The notes under the pieces: generated by a model
Seen by the model: only the letters and a program-made list of their open reading frames with translations
Databases searched by the model: none
Told to the model about the DNA's origin: nothing
Program-made: the position numbers and the translations under genes
NCBI GenBank assembly: GCA_032718475.1
Contig: JAUCBJ010005083.1
Span: forward strand, 9,139-73,138
Source of the DNA: Nemertoderma westbladi
Lineage: Eukaryota > Animalia > Xenacoelomorpha
Direction of reading: 5' to 3'
Length of the DNA stretch: 64,000 nucleotides
Part shown: piece after piece, positions 88 through 40,743 of the stretch
Numbering within the stretch: position 1 is the first letter of the stretch
How the letters are laid out: each line of letters starts with the position of its first letter

Positions 88-930
88 CAACATACGGAGT
101 GGGTGTGTGACTATATTATTTTATATTTATTTTATTATTTTATATTATGTATGTATTATTATGTAATTTTATTATAATCGTTTTCTTTAATTTTATTTAG
201 TAGAATGTTATTTTAGCGATTATTTAGTAGATTAGTGCAATATATATTCGCGTTTATTACTTAATTACTTATATATTATATATTTAGTGCGACGGCGAGA
301 AATAATTCTTTTTCTCTTTCCTTACTGTCCGTATTACATTACAAATACGTAACTACAGTAAGATGAAATATCCGTACTTATTAAAGTACAATAGAGCTCC
401 TACTATATTTAAGTATTATTGGTAGGCAAAGTATTAGGAATGCAAAGTTCAGATCCTCGTGTCTCGGCTAAACCAAGTTCTGGGTAGACCTTGGAAACGA
501 CTTGCCTCTTCACACTGACATTGCTTCGTGCGATATTGTTCTCATACCGTATATTAAATAATACATATAGTAGCGTGATGTCCCTTTAACAGTAGCGTAT
601 AACGCAAAATAAATCTGTTAAACCCTTTGACCATCTGCAATTCTAGTCGATTAAGATATCGCGGCACCCACCGATATACTTGAAAGACAAAATTCTAGAA
701 TCAGTGGTTAACGTCCCCAGGCAAGTTCTGGAATAAACTGGTGCCCATCCTAAATATTAATTATTAATATTTACAAAATCTGTCAAATATCAGATCCTTT
801 AAAATTCTAGTCGATTAAGATATCGTAGCACTTACCGATACTCTTAAAAAGACAAAATTCCTGGAATCAAGGATCCCAGTCCCCAGACACGTTCTGGAAT
901 AAAATTGTGTCTATTTAACATTAAATAATA

Positions 931-2093
931 TGTAAAAGCTTTTGCGTAATTAACCGGTTATTTTCCCTTAAAGTACTCTGTAGTTGGTTTGCCAGGCATA
1001 AAAAGGCCGTGTCCTTGCTGTACTGGTGTTTTAGAGGACATAAAAGTCATTTCTTCTGTATTTGTACTTTAGAGGACATAATCCGCAATCTCGTGATGCG
1101 ATAAGCTAGATACTCTTGAAAACAGTGTCGCTACCATGACGACGGCTAACAGCTGATATTGCCACGTCGACATTTCTTTGTTTCTTTGTTCTCTCGTTGT
1201 TCGGTTGACCAATCAGAGCGTTTTTTGTCTCTGTGTTGGAGGTGGATACAGAACTCAGTAGTTCAGTGTTATGTTTTTGTCCAGAGCCTAAGAACATCGG
1301 CTTTTGGCACCTCCGTATATCAGCATTCTTTAGCTTTACATTAGTAGGCTTAATTATAGAACGTATATCTGTTATCTAACCATACCAATGCAATTCGAGT
1401 TAACATACCATATCTATCCATAAATTACTAATATTACTGCTTTTACTGTCGGTTATTCATTATATTGGTTGATGAAATATTATATCGGAATACTGATCAA
1501 TAGTCAGATACCCCACCTTCTTGATATACTAAAGGTTAGAGAGACCGGTTACAGATAAACGATTGCGACCTATGTTAAGTGGTTTGAAGTGAATCTAATG
1601 CTGTTTCATAGGCCCGACATAAATTGTATGTTGCTCTCTTCATACGTGACTAAATTTAGTGAAGGTCGGCAGATTAGTGTGCAGTATTGTGCAGCATTGT
1701 GTATGATTGTAACTGATAACAAAGCATCTCCTAAAGAATGCGCCATATACGTAAATCTATAGCCTTTTCGTTGTGTCTAGTTTAAGTCATAACTCTGTTT
1801 ACATATTTAGAGCGCCACGTCCTAAAGGAACTGTTAATATTTCCCGAAAGTGAACAATATTTGTCAGAGATTATATATTACGATCAGTCGAATAATACGG
1901 TAGGCTTACACCATCAATCATTAAGTTCCGAATTCAGTCTCCAGGGTATATCCAGCGGGTGAATGATTGCGCATAGACTGGCTTCGGCTAATGTAGTGTA
2001 TCAAATACTCGTCATAAGCTAAAGAATATATATCATCTAAAAGACATCCTAATTTGGCAGGTTAAACTGTCAAAGGTCTTAAAAGCGCAAACA
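931..2093 (+). repeat. 5' LTR of inner element (1163 bp)
   Basis: Starts TGTAAAAG, ends GCAAACA; direct repeat of 16949-18111 with roughly ten differences by eye; CCAAT box at ~1209. Confidence 0.97.
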
Positions 2094-2104
2094 ATAACAG
2101 ATAT
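2094..2104 (+). promoter_or_regulatory. Putative self-priming primer-binding site
   Basis: ATAACAGATAT abuts the LTR CA end and is the exact reverse complement of LTR bases 1365-1375 (ATATCTGTTAT); no TGG-initiated tRNA PBS is adjacent to the LTR. Confidence 0.6.
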
Positions 2105-2373
2105 TGCTTCTGGATTGCGGTGTAAGCAATCTAGTCGAAAGTACCGGTCGACCGGTAACCAGTAGGCCTGACTGCCTGATCATCCGGACCGGTACCTACA
2201 GTAGTACAGGTACAGCAGTATTATTCGATTGTGGTATTGTATACCGGTAGGCTGTTTAAGAGATTAGGGACTGTACACCCCTTGTTTCTTTTGGAGCTTA
2301 CTTATTTCTGTCAGTTTTATTTATTTGTAGGCCAGTATTGAGCAGAAGGCATGTAAGCCTGCTCAGATTGTAC

Positions 2374-2941
2374 AGATAATTTGTAGGCTTGACTGTTGTC
2401 TAACTGTTGTTAAGTCTGAACGGATTGCAGTGTGTGTAGAGCATCTGTCCGATGAAGTGCTAGTTAGGAAAGTAGGGGCTTCAAGTGCTGTGAGGTAAAC
2501 CCCCTGTGAAAGAATAAGTCGTACTACTGGGTTAGAACGCATACTAACTAATCATTTCGGAGTCTGCATATACTGTAGTGTATTTGGGCTTGATAGTAGT
2601 CTGCCATCGTTTAGTCTGTACTTTGTTTGTGTAGTCTGTACGGGTAGCGTATAATTTTATTTAGATAATTTGTAGGCTGGATAGTTGTCTGGCTGTTGTT
2701 GGGTTTGAGGAAATTTCGGTGTGTGTAGAGCATCTGTCCGATAAAGTGCTAAGTTAGGAAAGTAGGGGCTTCAAGTGCTGTGAGGTAAACCCCCTGTGAA
2801 AGAATAAGTCGTACTACTGGGTTAGAACGCATACTAACTAATCATTTCGGAGTCTGCATATACCGTAGTTTGTTTAGGCTTGATAGTAGTCTGTCAGTAT
2901 TTGGTCTGCATTTTGTTTGAATAGTCTGTACGCGTAGCGTA
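2374..2941 (+). repeat. 289-bp tandem duplication in the 5' leader
   Basis: 2374-2651 and 2663-2941 share an essentially identical core (GAAAGTAGGGGCTTCAAGTGCTGTGAGGTAAACCCCCTG...) with diverged edges. Confidence 0.9.
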
Positions 2942-4286
2942 ATATTTATTATTCAGAGTTTATGCGATTATTCGCAACATTCATATCCCCAAGTTTATTC
3001 CTACAGTAATTGTGTTTGTTATACATACCGTTATAGTTAAACTAACCCCGGTACTACATCAGGGCTGCTCGGCGTAGGTAAAGACTGGTGATTTTGTGCA
3101 CTGGTCACTCCAGCAGATGCCGTGGTTCTTTTAGCTATTCAAGTATTTTTAACTACTAATTATTTGTTGTACAAGTACTTGTACCTAATTTAGGGTTTAG
3201 TGTACAGTACTTTCCGAAGGTGATTAGTGTGTAGGCAGTATATTTGTGTTGTAAAGTGGTTAATAGGCACGTTGGTTCTGGTAGACCGCGGTAATTAATC
3301 TCTAGGTAGGAACACTCCGTGATACATAACGTAGTACCTATAGCGATACGGTTATAGGTCGTCAGGCGGTGGTATTTTCCTATCTGGACAACGCAGTATA
3401 TTTACTACTACTTATTATTTTCAAATACCGTAGTAACCTGTCCGTTGTAATAACCAGATATTCTAACCCTTTGTTAGGCTGGTTAGTAGACTTCTTGTAA
3501 AATTACCCTAAAAATTTGTATTTGTGTATTTGCAATTAAATTTTTGTGTTTATTTAGAGATTGTAATCTCAACCCGAATTGTACGTAATTTGTAGTATTA
3601 AGTAACTTAGGTAAATTAGAATTATTTGTTTTAGTGTCTAACAAGTAGCACTCCACTGAGAGCGCACAGCTTATGTGTAGTGACTCCCCCAGAAATAATA
3701 ACATTTATTTCAAACATTGACAAAACCCATTAAACGGGTATATATATATTATAAATCAACTCAAACGATTTATAAATAGTAGGCCTGCCATATAACAATT
3801 AGGTCTCAATATCAGTTGGACTACTGCTTAAATAACGGCAATAAAGTAAGTTAAAGTAACCAAGTAACCCTTAAAATTCAGAAATTCAATTATTTAAAAT
3901 AATTGATATACCGGTATTTACAATAGGCTTATTATCTTTATTTTCATAAACTTAGGCTGAAATCATACCGGTGTTCTGTAATTAATTCTAGTTAATAATT
4001 ATACTTATATATACTATAAGTGTAAACTGCATACCGGTATCCACGATAGGCCTATTATATATTTATATATATTTGTGCTAAAATTATACCGGTATTTTGT
4101 GAAAAACCTAGTCTGTAATAATACTTATATATACCATAAGCATACCGGTATTCTAACATTATATATATATCACGCTACACTGAGTAGCAGTATCGGTAAT
4201 TAATTACTAGGCTAGCAGTTAATGCTGAATTACTAGACTTGCTTGGACTGTAATATAGCAGTAGGCATTCAACTGTGCAAACAAAC

Positions 4287-7200
4287 ATGTCTGATACTAA
4301 GCAGAACCTGTCAGACAGTTTATTAGATGTAACTATCTGCAACTCAGATAAGGGTGTAGAACCGTCTACACCTAAGTTCAGTTCACCTCCCACTGTGAAG
4401 AAGGTCATCCCTCCAGTAGTAATAACAGAACCTAGGCTGGTCCAACATCGTAGGTCTATCATAGGCACTCGAGCTCAGGTCAAGCGGGACCAAGAAGCAG
4501 CGGAACAGCAACAACCCGCGAGCCAAGAACTTATTTCTCAGCGGCCCGACAGCTCCAGTAGTGAAGATACTGTAGAGCTGACACCCGAGCGCGGAGCAAG
4601 GATGACGGATGCGGTTTATTCGGATCCCCTTCTCATCCTTCCTGCAGCCGTACTCACTAGGTTATTGATCGTGGTGGAAGAACACCAGATCGATTGGGCG
4701 AGAAGTAAGCGATCAACTAAAGATAGTTATGAGGGATACACAAGGGAAGAACTGAAGTCTATGGTCGAGTCGCAATGGAACTTCCCCAGACCCGGACTCC
4801 CGTTTGATTTATCAGAAGCTGCCTGGGAAGACATACACCGGATGGGAGTAGCCAAGGAAACCATCGATCCAGCTGTGTGGAAGAGGTCCGCAGCCGGATA
4901 CGCACAGGGATTCTTCAGCTCTATGGAGCGAGTAAAAGAACAACTGTTTCAACAACCTCAAGGACCTCAAGAGCAGGGACAACTGCTTTATCAAGTTAGA
5001 GAAAGAATTCTGCGAATTAGGCTAATCTTATCGGCCTTTGAGGAGGCTTCTAAAAGAAGACAAGACACGTCGTTGCAAGTTGCCGTAAAGACTTGGTTTC
5101 AACGGGTGAGTCTCCAGGTTCAAGGAACAGCTCAGTGGAAAGCTCAGCTGGAGGAGCGCTCAACCCATGGAGAATCAACAGACGCTACTTTTTCCCAAGT
5201 GGAAAGTGAAGCGACGGCAGAGAAACCGCATAAGAGGGATGCCATTGACATCTATCTGTCAGACTATTAGCGTTTTTTGGGAGATGAAGAGTTGAGGAGA
5301 AGGCTAGATGGACTTAGCCCTAATAGTGAAGGAGCCCAGCGTGTGTTGGACGCAATTGATGTGGATAGGTTAGCGGCGAACCAAGCTAAATTCGATGAAC
5401 AACTCCGCATCGCTAGAGACCAAGAAGAAAGGGTGAAGAAAAAACGCATAGAAGACAGAAAGAAAGCAGCAGTAGCAGCTGCAGAAGCCGAAAGGAAAGC
5501 AGCCGAAGAGGAAAGTAAAGCAGCCGAAATGGAAAGAAAAGCGGCAGCTGCAGAGGCAGAAGCGGAAAGAAAAGCGGCAGCGGCAGAGGCAGAAGCGAAA
5601 AGAAAAGCGGCAGCGGCAGAGGCAGAAGCGAAAAGAAAAGCAGCCGAAATGGAAAGAAAAGCGGCAAGGGCAGCGGCAGAAGCGGAGCGGATAGCGGCTG
5701 AAGAGATTGCCCAATTAGAATTGGAAAATATTCAGGAGAATCAAGACTGCCTAAATAAACAGTTAACAGCTAGTAATATGCAGATGATGAATCGATCTAC
5801 TCCCAAAAGACAGGGATATACATCATCTGAGGAAGGCGATACCACCGATACTGAAGGCAAAGGAAATAGATCTCACCTAAGCAGACGTAAAAGAACATCC
5901 CACCGTCAGAAATTGCCTGATTTGCCTCCAGCTGTTAGAAGGCAACTAAATAACACCAACTTAGGTAGTACAGAACCCACAGACCAAATAATTACAATAG
6001 AAAGACTCCCTACTATAGTAGATGAGCCTGAAATAATTAGGCCTGTTCCCGAAGCCACCCTTTCGGTGGTAGAGACACCTGTACTCCCTGAATCTACCTC
6101 TAAATTCCCTTTGCACAGTACCAAGCTACCTGTGCCCAGCAGAACAGCCCATGAGACAGTTCATGCCCTGGACTCCGAGCGAAATATTCATGATTTGTCG
6201 CCCGTTGTCCCTCGTCCGCCCGCTACAACGTTGGCGAATCCCGCTTCGGCGGTCGAATGGGTGGATGAGAGACGACGGGGGATGGATCTCCTGCTCGGAC
6301 AGATGCAGGAGACCGTTCAGCAATTCAAGGGCACAGTAAGGGAAAGTAGGCTAGAGTTGCAAGAAGTGCAGCAAAGTATCGCGCTAGAATGCGATAAATT
6401 AGTAAATACACAAAAGGGTATACCACCACCCCCTGTAACAATGTGTCAACCTGTTAGGTCTGAAGTATCTCATGCGCAAGGTGTGGAGCCTACACGCATC
6501 TATACTGCTAGCGAAGTAGAAACTCCTATAGTGAACCCTATTAAGGGTAATTATAGACCTGTTGATAATGATATTCCCTATAGACCGGATCATAATCCGA
6601 GAAATTTATATACCGATAACTCGATATTAAATAACACGATGGCCCAAGAAAGTTTTACGCGTCAAATGGCTAGAACCGAAGCCCGGCAAGCTGTAAAGGT
6701 GGGAGAGATCGTCAAGTTCAATGGAGATGAGATGAAATGGTTACCTTTTAATGAATATTACAAAGATAACATACAGAACTCTGTGCTATCTAATGGAGAG
6801 AAACTTAGATTCCTCATCGAGTGCTTGGAAGGATCTCCCAAGTTAATGGCGTTAAAGTTTATTGGACATCCAGACGGATTAAGACAAGTTTGGGATACAC
6901 TAAACATCAGGTATGGTAATAGGAATAACATAGCTGGGTATTTGTATGCAAAGTTGGTAGCGCCCTGAAAGTTTATTAGCAGCGGAATTATAGAGTTTTC
7001 CGATGAAATTCAGGAGATCTGCAGACAATTAGATTGGCTAGGTAAGTCTCATGAGTATCAGAATGCTATGGTTATTAGAGCAGTGGCTTCTACTTTACCG
7101 AAGGGCGGAGTAGGTACACGCTGGGATAAGAAAGTGTTATATATGATGGAACAACAACGACGAGACCCTACCATGGCTGATCTCATGTCATTCCTAGATG

Positions 7201-10200
7201 GAGAAGTGAAATTACAGCTCCTAAAACTGTCCAGAGAGAAGACACCGGAAAACAAGGTAAGTGAAAAACCCGTCTCTAGGAGAAAGGTAACACCAGAGTG
7301 TTATACAGATGACGGCGAAAGCCAGACTTCTCAAGGAGAAGATAGCGGGAAAGACACTGACAGATCTTATTACGTAAATAAAATGCCTAAAGATCAGGTA
7401 AGTAAATTCAAGTCTCGAACCAATGACAGGAGAGAACAGGTAAGAAAAACTCCTCCTACGTCTCCCAAGAGAATTCAGGTGAGAAAGCCCGAAGAAAAAA
7501 CAAGTGTACACAATGTTACTCAGAGTAAGGTGAGTAACATCAAACCGAAATGTGCGCTATGTGATGGGACCCATCGCTTAAATATGTGTGATGAATTTCT
7601 AAAGAAATCATTAACTGAGAGACGTGAAGTCATGTGGGATAAGCGGTTGTGTTATAATTGCCTCAGACAAGGACACCAACGGCGAACCTGTTACTCTGAC
7701 ACAAGATGTGCCAAGTGCGGTGCGAAACATCATATCTTGTTGCACACTGAATTCGAGCGAAATAGTCCGAGTCAGGTAAGTGATTCCGAACTACATGTCC
7801 AATTCAGTGATGTGAACGACACTGATCAATCTGAGATGGAAGGATTCTATACAGACGAGTTCTCCGACGAAAACGAATCCTGTTACATGATAAATACCAC
7901 AGTGTATCGAGCACTTACTTATGAAAAGGATACGGACAGCGACCTTACCCTAACTACTTCTGGTCAACCACCATTTTGGAAAGCGCCAACTTCCAATGTA
8001 GGGATTAGAGAATTTCCTGTGGTACAGGTAAGGGTCCACGGACCAAAAAGGAGTTATGTAGTGAACGCCCTCCTTGACTCCGGTAGTACAGGAACATTCA
8101 TCGACAAAGAGCTAGCCGAAGACATATTCGCTGGACAACCCAAGTTCCGAACTAAGCTAAACATGTCAGGAATTATGCAAGTTTGGAAATCCACAGTAAC
8201 AGCGGATTATTATGTAGGTGCGTTGTCCACCCCCCAGGACGAACTAGGAGAACATAGCATAAGGTCAGTGAAAATGGTGGCTATAAAGAACTTCGCTACT
8301 ACTCAAGCAGACCTTTATAATTGGGACGAGGATGAGAGCATCCAACATCTTAAGATACCTCGATTCCAGACTAATTATCCTGGAGTGCAAATACTCATCG
8401 GCCAAAACGCGCATGAGGCGCTCGAGACATTGGAGAAACGGCCTGCTCAACCGCAGCCACTACAAACCTATGCGGTAAGAACTAGAGTAGGTTGGTACTT
8501 TACTGGCCCTTCCCGTAGAACTCTCATGGAAAGATTACCGAAAGATCAGGTATATCAAGCGCGAGAATGGGAAGTTGAGAACAGTGAGTTCGACGATCCA
8601 ACTGAGGGAACTCCATACTCCTCAGACAACGACGATATACATCAACTCTTCGATGAGGAGAATGCCACCGATCTCCTTAAGGAAAGCGAGACTTGGCAAA
8701 ATCAAGTGAACTTATGTCAACTCCTTCTCCCATCCGAGCGAGACGACTATAACGACGAGCTTAATGACGTCATTGAACGTTATAATGCCAAGACTCGGGA
8801 TGAACACGCCGTGAGATTCTTTACTCAAGAGGTCGTAGAGCCCAACTCCTACGATAAGGCCCTATCGGTGGAGGAAGAAAGAGCCAAGCAGATCCAAGCG
8901 ACAACTACTCGTTTTCTTAAAGATCAAGGTAGGTATGAGATCGGACTTCCTTTCCGAAAGCGAGAACCAAAGTTCATTAACAACAGACCTTTGGCGGAGA
9001 AAAGAATTGCTCAACTACATCGACGCCTTACGGCAAATTCTTCAGCTAAAGAAATGTATCAAACGCAGTTGAAGAAGTTTATTAGCAAGGGATATGCGGA
9101 GCTAGTACCGGAAGAAACACCCATAACTGAGAGAACGTATTATTTAACTCACCATTACGTTCCCAAACCCGGTAAACCCCATGAAGTACGAGTGGTGTTT
9201 GACGGTTCCGCCCTTTATATGGGCCAATCTCTTAATTCTGAATTGTTACCCGGACCCAACTTACTTCAATCCTTGTTGGGAATACTATTAAGATTAAGAC
9301 AATACTCCATTGCTTTCGCCTCAGATATAGAAGGCATGTTCTTACAAGTCAAAGCGCTGGATAGGGATCGGGATAGTCTACGATTTTTGTGGTGGCCTGA
9401 AGGAGACCTCAATAAGAAACCTGTGGAGTACTGGATGACCATCCAAGCCTTTGGGATAATCTCGAGTCCTTCAAACGCCTGTTCCGTGGTGCGCAACACT
9501 GCGGATGACAACCGAGACGCCTTCTCTAAAGAAGTGATCGACAATATCAAACGAGACATCTACATGGACGATAATCTGAAGTCCCTTCTATCAGTAGAAG
9601 AAGCCATTGAGGTCGCTAAAGGAACGGTAGAATGCTTAAAGAAAGGAGGATTTCGATTAACTAAATTCACTAGCAACTCCCGTGAGTTTCTGGAGTCGAT
9701 CCCGGTAGAAGATCGAGGAACAAAAGACCTAGATCTAATAAAGGATGATCTCCCAGAAACTAAGACCCTTGGTTTGAAATGGGACACAGAAAGAGATATC
9801 CTGTTTTTCCAATTAAAACAGCGAGATAATCCAGTTCGGACTAAACGGATTTGTTTAAGTATCCTGAGCACTTATTTCGATCCATTGGGATTTATTAGCC
9901 CAGTTATATTGATTGCTCGGAGTTTAGTACAACAAATGTGGCTTGAAAACCACTCATGGGACGATCCACTTAAGGGAGAATTATTAAAGAAGTGGATGAA
10001 ATGGGAAGATTCTCTACCAGCCATCGAAAACTTTATAATTTTTTTCATTTATAATTTTTATCATTTACAAAGTTCATATTTTGGTCATGTTCTCCCTACG
10101 TATTCATATCAACTCCATGTGTTTGGAGACGCCAGCGATATGGGAATCGGTATAGTAGCCTACCTAAGGGTGGAAACTCCGGACGGAATTAAAGTCGCCT

Positions 10201-12473
10201 TGGTTACCTCTAAGGCATTAATAAACAACAAGTTGAAAGTTCCTCGAGCGGAGTTAAAAGCGGCTCTATACGCTACAGCCATCGGCCGGAATGTAACAGA
10301 ACAGATCGACTATCCCCTGGAGAAAACTGTCTATTGGACCGACGCTTTACTCGTGTTGGAGTATATAACCAATGAAGTCTGTCAGTTCAGCGTCTTCGTT
10401 ACCAACAGAGTAGCTATTATACTCAGTCGCACGACGATGGATCAATGGAGACATTGCCCCGGAACGATTAATCCAGCGGACATCGCTTCCAGGGGAGCAA
10501 CTCCACAAGAACTGGTAGATACTCCAGACTGGTTAGGTGGACCCGACTTCCTCTACAAAGAAGAAGAAGAATGGCCTCCTCATCTTACTACAGCAGAAAT
10601 TAGACAGGCCAAGGGAGCGGAGAAAGTCAAGCCTAAAACTCAGGCGAGTAAATCGAAGTTATTCAAACCCACAGTAGATCTGTCTGTACTACATACTTCC
10701 GGAGACGACGCTTTGGATCAGAAACCCACAGCCACAAATAAACCCATTGTGGAAATCCGTGATAAGGATTGGAAATCTGGTATACCAGACGTCTCGCAAG
10801 GACTCTCACCTCTTCTGCAGAGAGCGATGCATCACTACAGTTCCTGGAATCGGCTTTGTAAGGCCGTTACATATTTAAAGAGATGTTTTCACCATCACTA
10901 CTCTGGGATGAAAACAAAGGGTGATACCGCTCCAATCACATCAGTGCAGGTCCATGTTATTAAAGACCTTCCTAAATATAAGGTACCCGACAAGTTTCTG
11001 AAGGAGAAGATCAGTTATCAGGAGCATGAAGAAACCAACAAACAGATGCTGAGACTCTTACAATGCTATGAAGATTCCGATAAGTATTTCCTGTTGTTGA
11101 GAAATCCACAGATGCGCTTAAGGGATCGTTTCTCTAGCACAATGATAGATGGGTTGATACGTGTTGGAGGAAGGTTAACGAATGCCCCATTATCCTTTGA
11201 TACTAAGTTCCCCATACTCATTAGAAATCTTGAAATACAAGTCAAGATGATTGTAGATGTTCACAGTAAGCTTTATCATGCTGGTAGAGAACGAGTTCTT
11301 AGCGAAATTCGAACTCGCTATTATTTTTATAAACCCCGTAGAGCTCTGAACCAAGTTCTTAGGAACTGTATACCCTGTAGGAAAGCATTCAGTAGGCCTT
11401 TAACACAGCGAGAGGCAGAATTACCTAGGGAACGACTAAGCTTTTATGAACCACCCTTTACTAATACCGGTGTGGATTTATTTGGCCCTATTGAAGTATA
11501 TCGTGCTAGGACTATAGTCAAGAGATGGTGTGTAATCTTTGTTTGTATGACTTGTAGAGCCATCCATCTCGATATGGTGAACGATTTATCTACCAACAGC
11601 TTTCTATTAAGCTTACGACGACAGATCGCTCGCTTTGGCACTAGTAACACGATGAGATCTGATAAGGGAACAAACTTCATTGGTGCCAACAATGAAATTA
11701 AAGCTTACGTCAAAGATTGGAACCAAAGACAGGTGGATGACCAACTACGAGTAACAGCGTCTAGTTGGACCTTCAACGCCGCCGACGCCCCTTGGTGGGG
11801 AGGAAGTTGGGAGAGATTAATAAGAAGTGTGAAGACGGCATTTCATTTTATAGTGCCTTGCCGCGCTTATCTCACCGACGAACTTTTGCGGACGTTAATG
11901 GAAGAAATCGCCGCCTATCTCAACGAGAGACCGCTTATGCCAGTCTCATCGAGTCCCGATTCCCTGGAAGCGCTAACACCCGCGCACTTCCTACTGAAGA
12001 AACCTGTAGCCATGCTCTCACAATCGGAAATCACAGACGGAGACGAATACTGCCGACAAACTTGGCAACTCATGCAGTTGTTATCCCGTCGTTTCGCTGA
12101 CCATTTCGAAAAACATTATCTGCCCACGCTACAACTTCGAACTAAGTGGTTTGCGCAGCAAGGAAACGTTAGCGCTGGAGACATGGTTCTTATTGTGGAT
12201 GTAGATCTTCCACGTAAGAGGTGGCAGACAGGTCGTATCATCGAGACTCACATCTCGGATGACGGTTTGGTGCGATCGGTAGAACTCGTCGTCATGCGAC
12301 GTAACTTCAAGAAACCGGGAATTGTCTTCGAGACGCAGCAGCTCAATCGCCCAGTGGGACGTTTATGTTTACTGGAAAGAGACAGAGAACTCTCCGGAAA
12401 CTATGGGAGACAAGATACTCTTCCCACGACCACCTCCCTAATCCAACAAACATCTAGGGACTCCCCAACTTAA
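4287..12473 (+). pseudogene. gag-pol: BEL/Pao Gag-Pol polyprotein (~2728 codons) broken by two in-frame stops (TAG 5268, TGA 6966)
   Basis: ORFs 4275, 5277 and 7068 share one frame with open linkers. Motifs: DUF1759-like Gag (KFNGDEMKWLPF...LSNGEKLRFL), CX2CX3HX4C / CX2CX4HX4C / CX2CX3HHxLLH, protease LLDSGS, RT YMDD, RNase H LHVFGDAS, integrase GVDLFGP / SDKGTNF / GGSWERL, LPTLQLRTKW tail. Confidence 0.95.
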
Positions 12474-13016
12474 AAACGGCTGGAGTGGGTGTGTGACCAT
12501 ATTATTTTATATTTGTATTTGTTTTATTTTATATTTATGTATGTATTATTATGTAATTTTATTATAATCGTTTTCTTTAATTTTATTTAGTAGAATGTTA
12601 TTTTAGTGATTATTTAGTAGATTAGTGCAATATATTAGTGTTTATTACGTACGTAATTACTTATAATATATATTTAGTGCGACGGCGAGAAATAATTATT
12701 TTTCTCTTTCCTTACTGTCCGTATCATATTATAAATACGTGACTACAGTAAAATGAAATATCCGTACTTATTAAAGTACAATAAAGCCACTACTATATTC
12801 AAGTATTATTGGTAGGCAGAGTATTAGGAATGCAAAGTTCAGATCCTCGTGTCTCGGCTAAACCAAGCTCTGGGTAGACCTTGGAAACGACTTGCCTCTT
12901 CACACTGACATTGCTTCGTGCGATATTGCTCTCATACCGTATATTAAATAATACATATAGTAGCGTGATGTCCCTTTAACAGTAGCGTATAACGCAAAAT
13001 AAATCTGTTAAACCCT

Positions 13017-13266
13017 TTGACCATCTGTAATTCTAGTCGATTAAGATATCGCGGCACCCACCGATATACTTGAAAGACAAATTTCTAGAATCAATGGTTA
13101 ACGTCCCCAGACATGTTCTGGAATAAACTGGTGCCCATCCTAAATATTAAGTATTAATATTTACAAAAATCTGTCAAATATCAGATCCTTTAAAATTCTA
13201 GTCGATTAAGATATCGTAGCACTTACCGATACTCTTAAAAGGACAAAATTCCTAGAATCAAGGATC
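13017..13266 (+). ncRNA. Two tandem diverged long hairpins in the post-pol region (also at 627-875 in the outer copy)
   Basis: Shared inner stems TTCTAG/CTAGAA, GTC/GAC, TTAAG/CTT(G/A)A, TATCG/CGATA. Outer stems differ but still pair (TTGACCAT/ATGGTTAA vs GATCCTT/AAGGATC). Confidence 0.6.
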
Positions 13267-13837
13267 CCAGTCCCCAGACACGTTCTGGAATAAAATTGTG
13301 TCTATTTAACATTAAATAATAAAATTTACGGGAATAAATTTAAATTCAGATATTTCAATGAATTTAATAATTGTCATTTTGTACAATTTATAACATTCCC
13401 AAAATTCCATTAATTAATAGATCATGGGAGCGGAGATTCACTCTATTAAGTGTATTTGTGTGCGAGAATCTCCAATGTATAGTCAATAGCCGATAAAATT
13501 CATAGAATCATGTATAAAGGGGATATTGACCATTAAAGAATTACTATTAAATAGCATCCCAGATCTGTATGCATGAGAATTACCCTAATTCTACCGCTAG
13601 CTTTCCATAATGTCACCATGGCAACAACCACGCTAGAATTAGAAGTGAGTTAAAAGAACAATAGAAAGCATGCCCCATTGAATAGCATAGGGAATAAATA
13701 GCGCACTGCTAGTATCCAAGGATACATAATAAATACAGTGACATTCTGGAAGGTACTGACTAACGGACAAATGGCCCGAATGTGTGCAGTTTGTTGCAGT
13801 TGTGTTGAATTTGTGTGTTTGTAGGTGAATGTTACTA

Positions 13838-14086
13838 CTAAGGTGTGTTTACAGTAGCGAGTCGCAATTGTGAAAGTAACCCTAACTCGCCAAGAAGAAC
13901 CTGCAGTACATCTAAGCCTTTGGGACGGACAGTTAAGTGACTTGTGCCGGTTATCGTTGTCGTTGTGTAGCTACATCGTTGGCGAAAGCACAGCGACGAC
14001 GGTACATCGGCGCTGAGGATCTTACACTGTCCGGGGGCAAAAGAGGGGTAGGCAGCGACGCCCGCTAGCCTAATATATAGACTCAT
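13838..14086 (-). CDS. Conserved 82-aa antisense ORF of unknown function (inner copy)
   Basis: Intact with the same start, stop and length in the outer copy (18634-18882); 5 of 8 changed codons are synonymous. Confidence 0.45.
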   Translation of the reverse strand: MSLYIRLAGVAAYPSFAPGQCKILSADVPSSLCFRQRCSYTTTTITGTSHLTVRPKGLDVLQVLLGELGLLSQLRLATVNTP

Positions 14087-14113
14087 TATAATATTGATAA
14101 ACTCATAGCAGAT

Positions 14114-14512
14114 ATGACTGAGTTGATAGAAGATGATCTTGGCATCAGGGAGCGATATACTCTACCTTTACAAGCGTTTGTCGATAGCTTGATACGCGGC
14201 GACGCTGGTCCAACTACTACGGAGGATGATGGTCGTTATATCGAACCGCCAATGTCCCCGGAGCAACTTACGTGTGAATTGGACTATAGAAAGTTCATCG
14301 CTCGCTATACACATCGTAATGGTACGTATATGGACTTCTTAACTACCGGTCATCCTATCGATTTACACGACACGGACGATGTGGATACCGAAAGGGAAAT
14401 GGTTTTATTTAAATATCATACCCAACGGAATCGGAACGATAAGCCAAGAATAGAACACGAGAACTCTATTCGAAATCAGCTCGAAAGGAAGAACGCGGAA
14501 GAAGACTTGTAA
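14114..14512 (+). CDS. Accessory ORF A (132 aa), unknown function
   Basis: ATG preceded by an acceptor-like TAGCAG; homolog at 18912-19285 shows many synonymous changes. Confidence 0.6.
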   Translation: MTELIEDDLGIRERYTLPLQAFVDSLIRGDAGPTTTEDDGRYIEPPMSPEQLTCELDYRKFIARYTHRNGTYMDFLTTGHPIDLHDTDDVDTEREMVLFKYHTQRNRNDKPRIEHENSIRNQLERKNAEEDL

Positions 14513-15409
14513 AGACACATAGAGGAGAACCACTGGAGAAGAGACGTGGGTTAATGTCCAGGGTCCATAATGAGAATAGTTTTCCCCGGGGCACGGGTGC
14601 TCGCGGGCGGTCTCCTTCGGGAGGCTGTAAATTTCTCTTCCTTCATCGTTTTCCTGTAATCATTGTGATCAGTGTCACAATTAAAAGGCAAGAATGAATG
14701 ATGACGTAACGGAAAACTTGTCCATTGTGGTATCTTATGGATACTACCCTATATCCTCTCCTCTTTACTCCCTTTATCCCTCTATACATCGCTATTGAAA
14801 ATACAACATACTTCGTCCCACCTTCTCTTCCCAATGCGCTCGGAACTTTGGGAGACGATCGACCAATCCTAGTTGTATCGTGGTATGGATCATACCGCCT
14901 CCTAATAAATCTCCCCACCCTTTACTGTTTATTTGGATGCTCATATTGGTGTCCGCACCTCTTGTCCATGTACCATTCTGTTGATATTTATGATATCAAC
15001 TTCCACCCTCTCGTTGTTGATTAGAAAATCAACCATCAATAATTTCCTTAAGTCCACAACCGTGATACAAGGACTGAAAGGACACGCGGATGGTTTGTGA
15101 ACAACTGGTACCATTATGTGTCATAAATCTGGTTGTTCACCTCCCTCAATGATTGGATATATAAATCTTATGTAGAACAACTGAGACAAACATATCCTTG
15201 GACTGGTGTTTACCTCATCGCACTGGGGATAAATTCAGTTGGAGATAGTCCTCGAATGTTACAATCCTCCTACTGAGATCGTATTTCTGAATATTTCAGA
15301 ATGCGAAATAATTTTTCCTCTGCTCTCGATCATCCATGGCGGAGAACATATTAGGCATACAACGGGAACATGGAGAACATTCCATACCCCTTCGTTGATA
15401 CTCAGCTGA

Positions 15410-16870
15410 TTGCTCCTTGGGCAGAAGGCCGAGGTTTCTTCCGCACTACGTATGCCAATACACCCAGCGGAATTACCAAAGTACAACGAACCTCCATCGG
15501 ACATCTTGCCTTTCAAGAATACGGATGGAATTTCAAGGCGCTTTCTGACTCCGTTCCGTAACGTTGATAGTCAGTTCAAGGACCGCGCTCTGACCAAACT
15601 CAGCCTGAGAGACTCAGCGGCGGAGAAGCTAAACAGCGCGGGATTTGCCCTTTTTCAGGACGTTTGTATACAGAACTTGCACTCATCTGTTATACAAAGA
15701 CCCCGAATACCCACGGGTTATTCTGTCGTCGAAGTTCAGACAGTGGGTCAGCTTGCGGAGACAGCCGCACCTACCTCAGCTATGCAATTGGAAGACGAAC
15801 CAATATGCTTAGAAGCTGAAGCGATTCAGCCTACAGCGCCCCGGAGCAGCGATAACGACTACGTCTTAGAGTGGTATCAAGGTCCACAATGTCTCACCGC
15901 ATACGATTATCGACACGCTAACTATGTTTCTCGAAAACGTTGTCGATTATGCGCATCGAGAAACCATTTCACTCCTATGGACTCAGACGTACCCTGTTCC
16001 TATTTCCACGAACAACCAATGATGGAGATATATTGTGCGTATTGCAGACTTAATAACTCTCATATTTTTGCAGTCTGCCCCCAATTTATGACTCAATGCC
16101 ACCACTGTCAACTTAAAGGACATGCCAGTTATAATTGCCCCTTTAATCACGATTTAGAGAGCGTAGATGAAATGATTACCCTGCGCTACATCCGAGCTTG
16201 GGAAGCTAACGCGGATTTACACTGTGAGTCCCGTCATCGATACTACCCTGAACGCTCTTACGAGGGAGTTTACGCGTTCCATCCTTATTTATTAGCATCT
16301 GTGGAACAAAAAACACGCATACCGAGTTACGAGCTAATGAAGCGTGTTGGTGAGTGTATTTCCACTAAATTTGTTAGAAGATACCTTAGGAACGTCAATC
16401 CTAACGATATTACTTCATACCATTTGATCAATTATATCCGTCAAGACCCTGAGTATGGCGATTTATTTATCAACTCGCACCCTGAGTTACAGGAAGTATC
16501 TCGACGGCCCTACGAATATCGAGCCCGAGAACGCGAGCTGGAAAGAACTATTAAACCAAGGAAGTTTCTCACCACTCACGGTCCGCCTACCGCCATTGCC
16601 CAGACAACCCGTCAAGGACCCGTAGGAGCTGCTGTCCTGAGGCGCGCCGTAAAGGCTGTTAGACCTCGCTCCACGGAAGTTGATATCGATCAACCAGGTA
16701 CCTCGACCGGCGGATACACCGATCGCAATCCGAAACCTTCTGATGCAATTGTATTGCACCCTTCACCCAGGAGTTACAGCCCTCCTAGTAAAGTGGCTCG
16801 CCCCAAAGAGAAAAGGACTCTTACTAGCCTCAAAAAACTGCGTAAACGCCGTCTGCGTAAGAAAGACTAA
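15410..16870 (+). CDS. Accessory Cys/His zinc-knuckle protein with basic C-terminal NLS-like tail (up to 486 aa; first ATG 15452)
   Basis: Long intact ORF with CRLCASRNH...C, CAYCRLNNSHIFAVC and CHHCQLKGHASYNC (CX2CX4HX4C); ends KKLRKRRLRKKD; no signal peptide or TM segment visible. Confidence 0.75.
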   Translation: MLLGQKAEVSSALRMPIHPAELPKYNEPPSDILPFKNTDGISRRFLTPFRNVDSQFKDRALTKLSLRDSAAEKLNSAGFALFQDVCIQNLHSSVIQRPRIPTGYSVVEVQTVGQLAETAAPTSAMQLEDEPICLEAEAIQPTAPRSSDNDYVLEWYQGPQCLTAYDYRHANYVSRKRCRLCASRNHFTPMDSDVPCSYFHEQPMMEIYCAYCRLNNSHIFAVCPQFMTQCHHCQLKGHASYNCPFNHDLESVDEMITLRYIRAWEANADLHCESRHRYYPERSYEGVYAFHPYLLASVEQKTRIPSYELMKRVGECISTKFVRRYLRNVNPNDITSYHLINYIRQDPEYGDLFINSHPELQEVSRRPYEYRARERELERTIKPRKFLTTHGPPTAIAQTTRQGPVGAAVLRRAVKAVRPRSTEVDIDQPGTSTGGYTDRNPKPSDAIVLHPSPRSYSPPSKVARPKEKRTLTSLKKLRKRRLRKKD

Positions 16871-16940
16871 CTGTTTAGAGTATTTTTATATTTTAGAAAC
16901 TGTGATTTGTTATATTTTATAGACTTAAATCCCATTTTCT

Positions 16941-16948
16941 GGGAGCGG
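16941..16948 (+). promoter_or_regulatory. Polypurine tract of inner element (same sequence at 20502-20509)
   Basis: GGGAGCGG immediately precedes the TG of the 3' LTR in both copies. Confidence 0.75.
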
Positions 16949-18111
16949 TGTAAAAGCTTTTGCGTAATTAACCGGTTATTTTCCCTTAAAGTACTCTGTA
17001 GTTGGTTTGCCAGGCATAAAAAGGCCGTGTCCTTGCTGTACTGGTGTTTTAGAGGACATAAAAGTCATTTCTTCTGTATTTGTACTTTAGAGGACATAAT
17101 CCGCAATCTCGTGACGCGATAAGCTAGATACTCTTGAAAACAGTGTCGCTACCATGACGACGGCTAACAGCTGATATTGCCACGTCGACATTTCTTTGTT
17201 TCTTTGTTCTCTCGTTGTTCGGTTGACCAATCAGAGCGTTTTTTGTCTCTGTGTTGAAGGTGGATACAGAACTCAGTAGTTCAGTGTTATGTTTTTGTCC
17301 AGAGCCTAAGAACATCGGCTTTTGGCACCTCCGTATATCAGCATTCTTTAGCTTTACATTAGTAGGCTTAATTATAGAACGTATATCTGTTATCTAACCA
17401 TACCAATGCAATTCGAGTTAACATACCATATCTATCCATAAATTACTAATATTACTGCTTTTACTGTCGGTTATTCATTATATTGGTTGATGAAATATTA
17501 TATTGGAATACTGATCAATAGTCAGATACCCCACCTTCTTGATATACTAAAGGTTAGAGAGACCGGTTACAGATAAACGATTGCGACCTATGTTAAGTGG
17601 TTTGAAGTGAATCTAATGCTGTTTCATAGGCCCGACATAAATTGTATGTTGCTCTCTTCATACGTGACTAAATTTAGTGAAGGTCGGCAGATTAGTGTGC
17701 AGTATTGTGCAGCATTGTGTATGATTGTAACTGATAACAAAGCATCTCCTAAAGAATGCGCCATATACGTAAATCTATAGCCTTTTCGTTGTGTCTAGTT
17801 TAAGTCATAACTCTGTTTACATATTTAGAGCGCCACGTCCTAAAGGAACTGTTAATATTTCCCGAAAGTGAATAATATTTGTCAGAGTATATATATTACG
17901 ATCAGTCGAATAATACGGTAGGCTTACACCATCAATCATTAAGTTCCGAATTGTGTCTCCCGGGTATATCCAGCGGGTGAATGATTGCGCATAGACTGGC
18001 TTCGGCTAATGTAGTGTATCAAATACTCGTCATAAGCTAAAGAATATATATCATCTAAAAGACATCCTAATTTGGCAGGTTAAACTGTCAAAGGTCTTAA
18101 AAGCGCAAACA
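16949..18111 (+). repeat. 3' LTR of inner element
   Basis: Near-identical to 931-2093; followed by TSD TAATA. Confidence 0.97.
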
Positions 18112-18633
18112 TAATAAAATTTACGGGAATAAATTTAAATTCAGATATTTCAATGAATTTAATAAATTGTCATTTTATACAATTTATAACATTCCCAAAA
18201 TTCCATTAATTAATAGATCATGGGAGCGGAGATTCACTCTATTAAGTGTATTTGTGTGCGAGAATCTCCAATATATAGTCAATAGCCGATAAAATTCATA
18301 AAATCATATATAGAGAGGATATTGACAATTAAAGAATTACTATTAAATAGCATCCCAGATCTGTATGCATGAGAATTACCCTAATTCTACCGCTAGCTTT
18401 CCATAATGTCACCATGGCAACAACCACGCTAGAATTAGAAGTGAGTTAAAAGAACAATAGAAGGCTTGCCCCATTGAATAGCATAGGGAATAAATAGCGC
18501 ACTGCTAGTATCCAAGGATACATAATAAATAAAGTGACATTCTGGAAGGTACTGACTAACGGACAAATGGCCCGAATGTGTACGGTTTATGGCAGTTGTG
18601 TTGAATTTGTGCGTTCATAGGTGAATGTTACTG

Positions 18634-18911: not shown

Positions 18912-19733
18912 ATGATTGAGTTGATAGAAGATCATCTTGGTATCAGGGAGCGATATACTCTACCTTTGCAAGCGTTTGTTGATAGCTTGATATGCGGCGA
19001 CGCTGGTCCAACTACTACGGAGGACGATGGTCATTATATCTAACCGCCAATGTCCCGGGAGCAACTTGCGCGTGGGTTGTACTGTAGAAAATTCACCGCT
19101 CGCTATACGCATCGTAATGGTACGTATATGGACTTCTTAACTACTGGTCATCCTATCGACCTACACGATACGAACGATATAGACACCAAAAGGGAAATGG
19201 TTTTATTTAAATATCATACCCAGCGGAAGCGGAACGATAAACTGAGACTCGAACACGAAAATTCTATTCGAAACCAACTCGAAAGTGCAGATGTTGAAGA
19301 GCCGGATAAACGCAGCGACTTCACCAAATACCTGGAATTCTTGAGAGAAACCTATCTCGATATTACCAGTCAACAGAATCTAGAAACTCGATATCCTCAA
19401 GGTATACATCATGACCGCATGGTAGAACTCAAACGGCTCTATTCCACTATGATGTATCTTACCGCCGATCGACCGCTACCTGTTGTACCGGATAGCTTCG
19501 AACGGATGGAGGAATATTGTAAGCTGGAGAAAGATCACTCGCGTTTCCCCTACAAGACGTGCGTTTTTGGTATTATTGCGATGAATGTCCAAGACCCAAC
19601 CAACAAACGGAAAGACATAAACATCCGCGGAGACGTTGCTTTAAACACGGTTTTACTCGCTATATTTACGGGAGTTTCGAGCGAAACTTGTTCGATGTAT
19701 CACCTACGCTCGTTCGACTCAGACGATCCTTAA
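18912..19733 (+). pseudogene. Accessory ORF A of the outer copy with a different, longer C-terminus and a premature TAA at 19041
   Basis: MIELIEDHLGIRERY... matches ORF A up to RNQLE, then continues ~150 aa not seen in the inner copy. Confidence 0.6.
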
Positions 19734-20509: not shown

Positions 20510-21688
20510 TGTAAAGGCTTTTGCGTAATTAGCCGGTTATTTTCCCCGTAAAGTACTCTGTAGTTGGTTTAACAGGCATAAAAGGCCGTGTCCTTACTGT
20601 ACTGTTGTTTTAGAGGACATAAAAGCCATTTCTTCTGTATGTGTACTTTAGCGGACATGATTAGCAATTCTATGACGCAATACGCCGGATCCTCTTGAAA
20701 CAGTGTAGCTACCATGACGACGGCTAACAGCTGATATTGCCACGTGGAACATCTCTTTGTTCTTTGTTCCTCTCTTTGTTCGGTCGACCAATCAGAGCGT
20801 TTTTTGCCTCTGTGTTGGAGATTGTATATAGAAACTCGTGGAGTTGAGTCAGTATGTGATTTTGTCCACAGCCTACAACACCGGCGTGGAACCTCCGTGT
20901 TTCAGTCTTTAGCTCAACATTAGTAGGCTTAATTATAGAACGTATATCCGTTATCTTACATCATACTCACTTAACATATCTCATACCAATTCTGCATTCA
21001 TAACCATTCATACCTTAAACTTTGTACTGCTATTTACTGTCGGTTATTCATTATATTTGTTGATGGAATATTATATTTGGAATACTGATAAACAATCAGA
21101 CACCCCAATCTTCTTGATATACTAAAGGTTAGAGAGACCGGATACATATAACGATTGCGACTTACATTAAGTGGTTTGAAGTGAATCTAATGCTATTTTA
21201 TAGGCCCTACACGTATTGTCTGTTGTTCTCCTTATATGTGACTAAAATTAGTGAAGGTCGGCAGATTAGTGTGCAGCATTGTGCAGTATTGTGTATGATC
21301 GTGATTGATAACGAAGCATCTCCTAAAGAATGCGCCATATACGTGAATCTATAGCCATCCCGTTGTGTCTAGTTTAAGTCATAACTCTGTTTATATATTT
21401 AGAGCGCCACGTCCTAAAGGAACTGTTAATATTTCCCGAAAGTGAATAATATTTGTCAGAGATTATATATATTACGATCAGTCGAATAATACAGTAGGCC
21501 TACCCCGCAATACGGTTAGGCTCCCGAATCCAGTCTCCCGGGTATATCCAGCGGGTGAATGATCGCGCATAGACTGGTTTCGGCTAATGTAGTGTATCAA
21601 ATACTTGTCATAGGCTAAAGACTATCTATCATCTAAAAGACATCCAAATTTGGCAGGTTAAACTGCTAAAGGTCTGAAAGCGCGAACA
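20510..21688 (+). repeat. 3' LTR of outer element (1179 bp, diverged)
   Basis: TGTAAAGG...GCGAACA; colinear with the inner LTRs but with many substitutions and indels. Confidence 0.95.
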
Positions 21689-22249
21689 GGGGGAGGGGGG
21701 TCAGTTAGATAGGAGGAGGGGGGGTCAGTTAGATAGGAGAGGGGGGGTCAGTTAGATAGGGGGGGGGGGGTCAGTTAGATAGGGGGAGGGGTGTCAGTTA
21801 GATAGGGGGAGGGGGGGTCAGTTAGATAGGATGAGGGGGGTGAGTTAGATAGGAGAGGGGAGGGTCAGTTAGATAGGGGGATGGGCAGTCAGTTAGATAG
21901 GGGGAGGGGTGTCAGTTAGATAGGGGGGGGTCAGTTAGATAGAGGGAGGGGTGGTCAGTTACATAGGGGGAGGGGGGTCAGTTAGATAGGAGGAGGGGGG
22001 TCAGTTAGATAGGAGAGGGGGGGTCAGTTAGATAGGGGGGGTCAGTTAGATAGGGGGACGGAGGGTCAATTGCATAGGGGAGGGAGGTCAGTTAGATAGG
22101 TGGAGGGGGGTCAGTTAGATAGAGGGGTCAGTTAGATAGGAGAGGGGAGGGTCAGTTAGATAGGGGGAGGGGGGTTAGTTAGATAGGGGGAGAGGGGGTC
22201 AGTTAGATAGGGGGAGGGGGGGTCAGTTAGATAGGGTGGGGGGGGGGGG
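21689..22249 (+). repeat. G-rich minisatellite (TCAGTTAGATAG plus variable G-tract, ~20-26 bp)
   Basis: More than 20 visible units. Confidence 0.95.
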
Positions 22250-27504: not shown

Positions 27505-28095
27505 ACTACTACTACTAGGATCGGCATGCTGCATTGCAGCTGCATTTTTAAGAATGCTGTGCCGGCTTGTCAACAAAATTGCACCGCCACAACTCCCTAT
27601 CACCCATGACATTTGCTAGATCATCCGCATCTTTAAGGCCAGTGTCCTTTAAGATGCGTCTCAAGAAAGTCATGGGCTGTCCACCATGCTTATTCACTCC
27701 ATGAGGCTGCCAAAGTACAAGATTATGCACTGGCTGGTCCTCACGGCGAAAGCAATGTCCTGCAAAGCGGAGGCGATTTTGTTCTAGTGTCAAGCTTGGG
27801 GGAACCAATGAGACACCTCCAATGTTATATAGTGTCTGGTTGGAGATGTGTGCATTGTACTTGACACAATGAACCCGGCGTAGCATTCTTGTGAATGTGC
27901 CATCCAGAGATTTGGTGTCCTCAGCAGTTAGAGCCCAGCATGGACTCCCGTAGAGGAGTACTGGAACTACTGCTGCTCTAAATAATCGGACCTTAAGTTT
28001 CCGATTAATTCTCGGTGACTTCCAAATCCTGGAAAGCCTATTCAAGGCTGCCCATGCCTTCCCCTTACGTATGTGAAGGTCATTAGCCTTGACAT
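27505..28095 (-). mobile_element. 5'-truncated RTE-like LINE (3' end)
   Basis: ORF2 C-terminus (KAWAALNRLSRIWKS...VLLYGS...RLRFAGH); (TAG)n tail; near-identical to 54025-54600. Confidence 0.85.
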
Positions 28096-40670: not shown

Positions 40671-40743
40671 TATATAGGTCATGGTAGACCTCAGATCATT
40701 AATGAGTTAATAAATGATTATTATCTATAAAATTTAATTAAAG

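What the first reader, a model, noticed from the sequence alone, without database searches (positions are those of the whole stretch)
1339..2135. BEL/Pao element with an apparent tRNA-independent, Tf1-style self-priming site
Seen: no TGG-type tRNA PBS abuts the 5' LTR. The 11 nt directly after the terminal CA (ATAACAGATAT, 2094-2104) are the perfect reverse complement of LTR nt 1365-1375 (ATATCTGTTAT), and the pairing stops exactly at the LTR boundary. That 11-mer lies in a ~39-nt island (1339-1377) almost invariant in the diverged outer LTR, whose flanks carry many changes. A hairpin (AGATATTGCTT/AAGCAATCT) overlaps the site. Established: S. pombe Tf1 and related Ty3/Gypsy chromoviruses prime from the first 11 nt of their own mRNA after RNase H-dependent cleavage, whereas BEL/Pao elements are described as tRNA-primed. 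Inference: an independent origin of self-priming in Belpaoviridae. I know of no report of this but could not search. Built-in test: the outer LTR reads ATATCCGTTAT (20944-20954), predicting a PBS of ATAACGGATAT for the outer element upstream of this window.
Basis: partly seen in the sequence, partly recalled or inferred. Interest (0 to 1): 0.9.

Follow-up and report, generated by a model that had tools for sequence, protein, structure and literature searches.

The report
Likely self-priming BEL/Pao retrotransposon
This BEL/Pao jumping gene has no tRNA-type landing site next to its terminal repeat but 11 bases that pair exactly with a stretch of that repeat, and 11 of 12 testable distant relatives keep such a pairing with different letters, so it likely starts copying itself with a piece of its own RNA, in a group described as needing a host tRNA.

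Summary
Observation confirmed. A 17.2-kb BEL/Pao element (LTRs 931-2093 and 16949-18111, 5-bp target duplication) has no TGG site abutting the LTR. Bases 2094-2104 are the exact reverse complement of 1365-1375 (10 of 5000 shuffled LTRs match). The predicted compensatory PBS change within this family stayed untested. Distant relatives supply the covariation: 11 of 12 metagenome families with a fixed LTR end have a 10-15-nt match to their own LTR at offset 0-4, against 3 of 156 non-cognate pairings. Five are contiguous and six form only across a GT-AG intron in the LTR. All 12 matches (window included) begin with AT or GT. The one negative has a TGG site. Best reading (0.78): tRNA-independent self-priming. 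Corrections: the conserved island is not exceptional; the favoured hairpin lies downstream of the PBS; in three relatives TATA boxes sit 124-167 nt upstream of the primer, so 'first 11 nt' is doubtful. No RNA or biochemical evidence. I found no published report, and ICTV describes tRNA priming. This scan noted the same thing in other genomes (7 notes), and those notes gave me the splice lead.

The parts
926..930 (.). Left copy of the 5-bp target-site duplication TAATA
931..2093 (+). 5' LTR, 1163 bp, TGT...ACA
   Evidence: 9 differences from the 3' LTR
1120..1220 (+). Conserved upstream block with CCAAT at 1209, likely promoter/enhancer part of U3
   Evidence: 1120-1169 nearly invariant; CCAAT kept in the outer LTR; function inferred
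1338..1377 (+). Conserved island ending 2 nt after the putative primer; contains a TATA-like TTATAGAA near 1353
   Evidence: 1 difference in 40
1365..1375 (+). Putative self-primer ATATCTGTTAT; predicted cut after 1375
   Evidence: ends in A-pyrimidine like all 11 matching relatives
1378..1440 (+). Hypervariable stretch beginning just after the primer
   Evidence: 48% identity to the outer LTR; depth drop at 1394-1429 and 4 of 10 listed joints starting at 1376-1377
1715..1764 (+). Possible alternative pairing partner of the island inside the LTR (1370:1721 is T-A in the inner, C-G in the outer LTR)
   Evidence: not significant against shuffles (36 of 300)
2094..2104 (+). Primer-binding site ATAACAGATAT at offset 0, not TGG type
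2110..2134 (+). 9-bp hairpin 5 nt downstream of the PBS
   Evidence: -12.1 kcal/mol; 2131 and 2132 vary among family copies
2105..4287 (+). Long 5' leader with a 295-bp tandem duplication (2374-2957)
4254..12473 (+). gag-pol in one frame, interrupted by two in-frame stops in the gag part (5268-5270, 6966-6968); zinc knuckles, protease, RT YMDD, RNase H and integrase motifs present in the pol part
15410..16870 (+). Extra 486-aa open frame with Cys/His-rich, zinc-knuckle-like motifs, absent from the outer element
   Evidence: no Pfam family; Atlas leads under 0.9 only
16934..16948 (+). Purine-rich tract ending GGGAGCGG directly before the 3' LTR
16949..18111 (+). 3' LTR with the second copy of the primer sequence at 17383-17393
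18112..18116 (.). Right copy of the target-site duplication
20510..21688 (+). 3' LTR of the older same-family element into which the inner copy inserted (86% identical); primer site at 20944-20954 with one T>C difference

Best explanation
The 11 bases after the 5' LTR pair exactly with LTR bases 1365-1375, and this element likely primes reverse transcription with that piece of its own RNA instead of a host tRNA. Inferred steps: transcription starts in the 5' LTR at or upstream of 1365 (more likely upstream); 1365-1375 anneals to 2094-2104, in cis or within an RNA dimer; the RNA is cut after 1375, probably by the element's RNase H, at the A-pyrimidine end shared across relatives; RT extends the new 3' end across U5 back to 1376, then jumps to the 3' LTR. 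Copying the primer during plus-strand synthesis would keep PBS and LTR site matched as families diverge. The window has the intron-free form; many relatives would have to splice an LTR intron to make the same primer.
For: Exact 11-nt match at offset 0, rare by chance. No TGG abutting the LTR and no Rfam match in 900-4400. In 12 metagenome BEL/Pao families whose LTR end is fixed by a repeat boundary, 11 have a 10-15-nt Watson-Crick match to their own LTR at offset 0-4, each with different letters; controls give 3 of 156 non-cognate pairings and 8 of 572 downstream leader positions. Six of the 11 need removal of a 71-186-nt intron with GTA-type donors and pyrimidine-rich YAG acceptors. In L050 one LTR copy has an acceptor exactly inside the primer and the other lacks the intron. 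All 12 matches, window included, begin AT or GT, which the search did not require. The one negative, L036, has TGG at +6. Seven more families with inferred LTR ends give 10-11 nt (weaker). RT and RNase H acidic motifs are present. Tf1 precedent: 11 nt, RNase H cut between bases 11 and 12 (PMC7175516, passages).
Against: No transcript start, RNA end or strong-stop DNA was observed. Within-family covariation is untested. The outer LTR's T>C breaks one pair with the inner PBS (-5.8 against -10.5 kcal/mol) and has a possible partner inside the LTR. Folding predicts the helix only when the RNA starts at 1365 (mean pair probability 0.92) and not for starts at 1000, 1230, 1300 or 1340 (0.00). A TATA-like TTATAGAA near 1353 could put the start downstream of the primer. 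The window's RT is a long branch with no starred grouping, at most 44% identical to the relatives, so their evidence carries over by analogy. The families are related and come from few datasets. Host tRNAs could not be compared.
Confidence: 0.78

Rival explanations
1. The 11-nt match is chance, the island is a core promoter, and the element uses a host RNA primer (internal tRNA fragment, or the TGG at 2111).
For: TTATAGAA near 1353 looks like a TATA box; the island is no more conserved than about six other LTR regions; host tRNAs could not be searched; the window is distant from the tested relatives.
Against: 10 of 5000 shuffles; the same signature in 11 of 12 relatives; the sequence right after the island is the most variable part of the LTR, unlike a start site; the TGG is 17 nt away and inside a hairpin arm.
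Confidence: 0.07
2. The LTR-derived primer acts in trans: a short LTR transcript or small RNA ending at 1375 (from solo LTRs or the partner RNA), not a cut of the same molecule.
For: The family has many diverged copies (7332 pieces laid from run X1); cis folding fails for upstream starts.
Against: No small RNA seen; fixed 10-15-nt matches and A-pyrimidine ends fit a defined enzymatic cut. The DNA signature is the same for cis and trans, so this overlaps the best explanation.
Confidence: 0.08
3. The pairing is a structural switch (dimerisation, packaging, translation or splicing control) and priming happens another way.
For: An alternative intra-LTR fold can sequester the 11-mer, with one two-sided change among 157 predicted pairs.
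Against: That fold is not significant (36 of 300 shuffles; 15 pairs broken). A switch does not explain why the partner always starts 0-4 nt from the LTR end, where minus-strand synthesis must begin.
Confidence: 0.07

Closest known systems
Tf1/Tf2 of Schizosaccharomyces pombe and the Tf1/sushi group (Ty3/gypsy)
   Same: 11-nt PBS directly after the 5' LTR, complementary to an LTR segment; no tRNA site (PMC7175516, PMC5341516, passages). The Tf1 PBS begins ATAAC, the same five letters as here (PMC11042837, passage).
   Different: BEL/Pao gag-pol. The primer is not shown to be the first 11 nt; relatives place it about 95-135 nt into the transcript or build it by splicing. A Tf1-like accessory structure (Lin and Levin 1997, title seen only) was not found: the extended duplex is not significant (195 of 1000 shuffles).
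Belpaoviridae / BEL-Pao LTR retrotransposons (ICTV profile PMC8742986, whole text)
   Same: TG...CA LTRs within 0.2-1.2 kb, one gag-pol frame, PR-RT-RH-IN order, purine tract, Peptidase_A17, DUF1759, DUF5641.
   Different: The profile gives an 18-nt PBS for tRNA-Arg or tRNA-Gly and a 4.2-10 kb genome; this element has no such PBS and is 17.2 kb with an extra 3' open frame.
Tcn1 of Cryptococcus neoformans
   Same: Self-priming proposed rather than shown (PMC7175516, passage).
   Different: Fungal chromovirus of Ty3/gypsy.

Membership tests
BEL/Pao (Belpaoviridae) | LTRs with TG...CA ends and a short target duplication | tested here: met
BEL/Pao (Belpaoviridae) | BEL/Pao-specific gag-pol domains in PR-RT-RH-IN order | tested here: met
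   PF03564, PF05380, PF17921, PF18701; motif order; 120 of 120 listed homologues carry PF05380
BEL/Pao (Belpaoviridae) | 18-nt PBS complementary to tRNA-Arg or tRNA-Gly 3' end (ICTV profile) | tested here: not met
   no TGG within 16 nt of the LTR. I treat this as a described trait, not as what defines the lineage; the filing rests on the protein domains
BEL/Pao (Belpaoviridae) | Placement in a named clade (BEL, Pao, Tas, Suzu, Sinbad, Dan, Flow) | tested here: inconclusive
   no named references on hand; long branch, no starred set in a quick tree
Tf1/sushi self-priming group | Ty3/gypsy chromovirus Pol | tested here: not met
   BEL/Pao domains, no chromodomain hit
Tf1/sushi self-priming group | About 11-nt PBS complementary to an LTR segment | tested here: met
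Tf1/sushi self-priming group | Primer is the first 11 nt of the mRNA | not testable with these tools
   no transcript data; relatives argue against, folding argues for
Tf1/sushi self-priming group | RNase H-dependent cut after the primer | not testable with these tools
   RNase H motifs present; needs biochemistry

The most novel reading that the evidence does not exclude
A large part of the BEL/Pao family has abandoned tRNA priming independently of Tf1. An internal LTR segment, cut at a conserved A-pyrimidine end, is the primer. In many families host splicing assembles it; the window's family is an intron-free, ready-made form.
Probability: 0.65. Interest if true: 0.88.

Novelty: new variant of a known kind. 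Interest (0 to 1): 0.76.

Why it matters
Self-priming is established only in the Tf1/sushi group of Ty3/gypsy, and the ICTV profile calls Belpaoviridae tRNA-primed with poorly understood replication. A second occurrence would revise that description. It would show that RT/RNase H can cut a primer out of an RNA-RNA duplex in another family, and in the intron forms it would tie the start of DNA synthesis to host splicing. It gives single-base predictions (a cut after 1375; mirror variation of 1370 and 2099) that short-RNA biochemistry and genome data can test. It also explains why tRNA-based PBS finders would miss these elements.

Tried and rejected
No whole genome is held, so the outer 5' LTR and host tRNAs were out of reach. 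Exact family patterns found nothing in viral or metagenome contigs; no Pol relative in viral contigs. No RNA holder listed. ARAGORN found no tRNA in the window. A spliced primer for the window (10 nt, donor GTTATC) was rejected: poor donor, and the contiguous match is longer. Upstream extension of the duplex: 195 of 1000 shuffles as good. Intra-LTR island helix: 36 of 300. Scoring changes: L069 was first counted as a TGG negative, then moved to the inferred set because its repeat runs to the contig end; a later CA gives 11 nt. L042 scored 5 with an earlier CA and 12 with the repeat boundary. With both first choices the tally is 11 of 14 including the window, against 3 of 182. The careful tree did not finish; in the quick tree the contiguous type needs 5 changes for 6 rows, no better than shuffled, and L069 carried its first label there. 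The extra open frame has no Pfam family and only weak Atlas leads.

Full report
Anatomy. Self-comparison shows a complete LTR element: 931-2093 and 16949-18111, 9 differences in 1163 bp, flanked by TAATA on both sides, with a purine-rich tract before the 3' LTR. It sits inside an older copy of the same family in the same orientation: 2-930 matches 12388-13321, 18111-19285 matches 13316-14487, and the outer 3' LTR is 20510-21688 at 86%. The outer 5' LTR lies upstream of the window, and no genome is held. One gag-pol frame runs 4254-12473 with two in-frame stops in gag. Pfam gives DUF1759, Peptidase_A17, Integrase_H2C2 and DUF5641; protease, YMDD, RNase H and integrase motifs occur in order. The named homologues come from cnidarians, molluscs, echinoderms, a hemichordate, crustaceans and a fish; the 120 listed hits are 34-47% identical. 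The element is BEL/Pao. Public runs hold many diverged copies (7332 pieces laid from X1).

The observation. 2094-2104 is the reverse complement of 1365-1375, exactly 11 nt from the first base after CA. It is uncommon by chance: 10 of 5000 shuffled LTRs, 3 of 14844 internal positions. No TGG abuts the LTR; the first is at 2111. Rfam found nothing in 900-4400. The island differs from the outer LTR at 1 of 40 positions, but 89 of 1151 windows elsewhere do as well. The favoured hairpin is 2110-2118/2126-2134, downstream of the PBS. Positions 2131 and 2132 differ in more than half of the summed depth in X1 and X3; by eye, one X3 loose-end row (5 contigs, agreement 0.74) suggests matching changes in the other arm, which would also remove the TGG (not verified).

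It remains open. One search displayed 40 variant rows and hid 130; neither 1370 nor 2099 was shown. The outer T>C at the 1370-equivalent weakens pairing to the inner PBS. It also coincides with A>G at the 1721-equivalent, the only two-sided kept change among 157 predicted intra-LTR pairs, 15 of which are broken. About one such case is plausible by chance, and the helix is not significant (36 of 300), but a failed or passed PBS test has to be read with 1721 in view. Just after the primer the LTR is at its most variable: 48% to the outer LTR, a depth collapse at 1394-1429, and 4 of 10 listed joints starting at 1376-1377. That fits the end of strong-stop DNA better than a transcription start, but only as a hint.

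Relatives. In 18 loci, forming 12 families, the LTR end is fixed by where the repeat stops, independently of any self-match. Nine loci (7 families) had only an inferred end, and 53 could not be assessed. Earlier scan notes suggested testing splice junctions, so I scored the longest Watson-Crick run starting 0-4 nt after the LTR, either contiguous or across a GTR...YAG intron. Eleven of 12 families reach 10-15 nt; with the window 12 of 13, against 3 of 156 non-cognate pairings and 8 of 572 downstream positions. Contiguous: L042 12, L043 10, L050 11, L056 11, L067 10. Spliced: L018 11, L030 12, L037 10, L053/L019 14, L052 15, L070/L071 11, with introns of 71-186 nt, donors GTAAGT (3), GTAAGG, GTACGT, GTAGGC and pyrimidine-rich acceptors. 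L050 shows both states: its upstream LTR copy has an acceptor inside the primer and its downstream copy is intron-free at that point (the contig may join two copies, which are 88% alike). All 12 matched sites begin AT or GT, so the primer ends in A-pyrimidine; the search did not ask for this. L036, the only negative, has TGG at +6. The seven inferred-end families give 10-11 nt, six across GTAAG donors, again starting AT or GT; their ends were picked with the match in view, so they count for less. L056, L070 and L042 have LTR ends uncertain by a few bases. Two scoring revisions (L069, L042) are given under Tried and rejected; without them the tally is 11 of 14. The families are related and come from few datasets, so they are not 12 independent origins.

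Mechanism. Shown: position, length and exactness of the match; absence of an adjacent TGG; the family-specific match in relatives. Inferred: that it primes. The site lies where minus-strand synthesis must start, changes letter for letter with the LTR, and has a shared 3' end. In Tf1 the PBS is copied into the cDNA end (PMC11042837, passage), which would keep the two sites matched. Inferred with less support: the cut by RNase H, by analogy with Tf1 (PMC7175516, passage). Open: the start site. Against it, TATA boxes lie 124, 133 and 167 nt upstream of the primer in L050, L052 and L070 (none found by that pattern in the other 9 matched LTRs), spliced primers would otherwise need first exons of 4-9 nt, and the window's conserved CCAAT at 1209 would usually imply a start near 1270-1310 (my knowledge of typical spacing). 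I put a start upstream of 1365 at about 0.5, at 1365 at about 0.35, and downstream at about 0.15. An intron inside the primer can persist under self-priming because everything upstream of the cut must be copied from the 3' LTR (inference).

Placement. In a quick tree of 79 RT-region rows the window is a long branch (1.63) with no starred set; contiguous and spliced types are interspersed. Whether the window's family lost an intron is therefore unknown, and no named clade can be assigned.

Literature. The ICTV profile (PMC8742986, whole text) states an 18-nt PBS for tRNA-Arg or tRNA-Gly and tRNA priming. Nine searches listed no paper whose title or abstract start reports self-priming in BEL/Pao. 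Term look-ups in the BEL/Pao survey PMC3118150 and the Sinbad paper PMC554778 found no PBS or tRNA statement. Passages only were seen of PMC7175516, PMC11042837, PMC5341516, PMC2864245, PMC3601003, PMC8220671 and PMC3286476; other hits only as listings. No supplements were read. Subscription papers, Repbase and GyDB entries were not searchable and could hold an earlier remark. I recall, unread, that a C. elegans BEL element (Cer7) was said to encode its own tRNA-like primer, a different mechanism. Seven earlier notes of this scan describe the same signature in other genomes; they are unchecked and are not counted as evidence.

Verdict. A real feature, most likely self-priming (0.78), working like Tf1 but in a BEL/Pao element and probably from an internal LTR segment. 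It is a new variant of a known kind; interest 0.76. All evidence is comparative; no RNA was seen.

Noticed in passing
window 15410-16870: Extra 486-aa open frame with several Cys/His zinc-knuckle-like motifs between pol and the 3' LTR; the outer element has a different 229-aa frame (19044-19733) in the non-matching part of this region. A possible accessory gene.
   Followed up: partly
window 931-18111: At 17.2 kb, with a 2.2-kb leader and a 4.5-kb 3' region, the element is far above the 4.2-10 kb given for Belpaoviridae.
   Followed up: no
window 35418-40676: An array of about 55 copies of a 74-bp unit (about 97% alike) enclosed by long inverted repeats (35418-35882 and 40216-40676): a foldback-like element carrying a minisatellite.
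   Followed up: no
window 54025-55899 and 27505-28081: LINE-like RT fragment (RVT_1, DUF6451) on the minus strand, with a 577-bp 97.6% copy of one end at 27.5 kb.
   Followed up: no
window 21689-22246: G-rich tandem repeat of about 23-bp units begins right at the outer LTR's end.
   Followed up: no
L050 1-326 and 6694-7103: One LTR copy has the intron acceptor inside the primer and the other lacks the intron precisely: natural evidence of splicing at that junction.
   Followed up: partly
L033, L037, L039, just 3' of the primer in the LTR: A short tandem repeat of variable copy number starts right after the predicted primer end, recalling the window's hypervariable stretch after 1377.
   Followed up: no
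window 2094-2098: The first five PBS letters ATAAC equal those of the Tf1 PBS (PMC11042837); chance, or a shared cleavage preference.
   Followed up: no
L077/L078 (one contig): A 6138-bp unit repeated at 100% identity: a tandem element or an assembly artefact.
   Followed up: no
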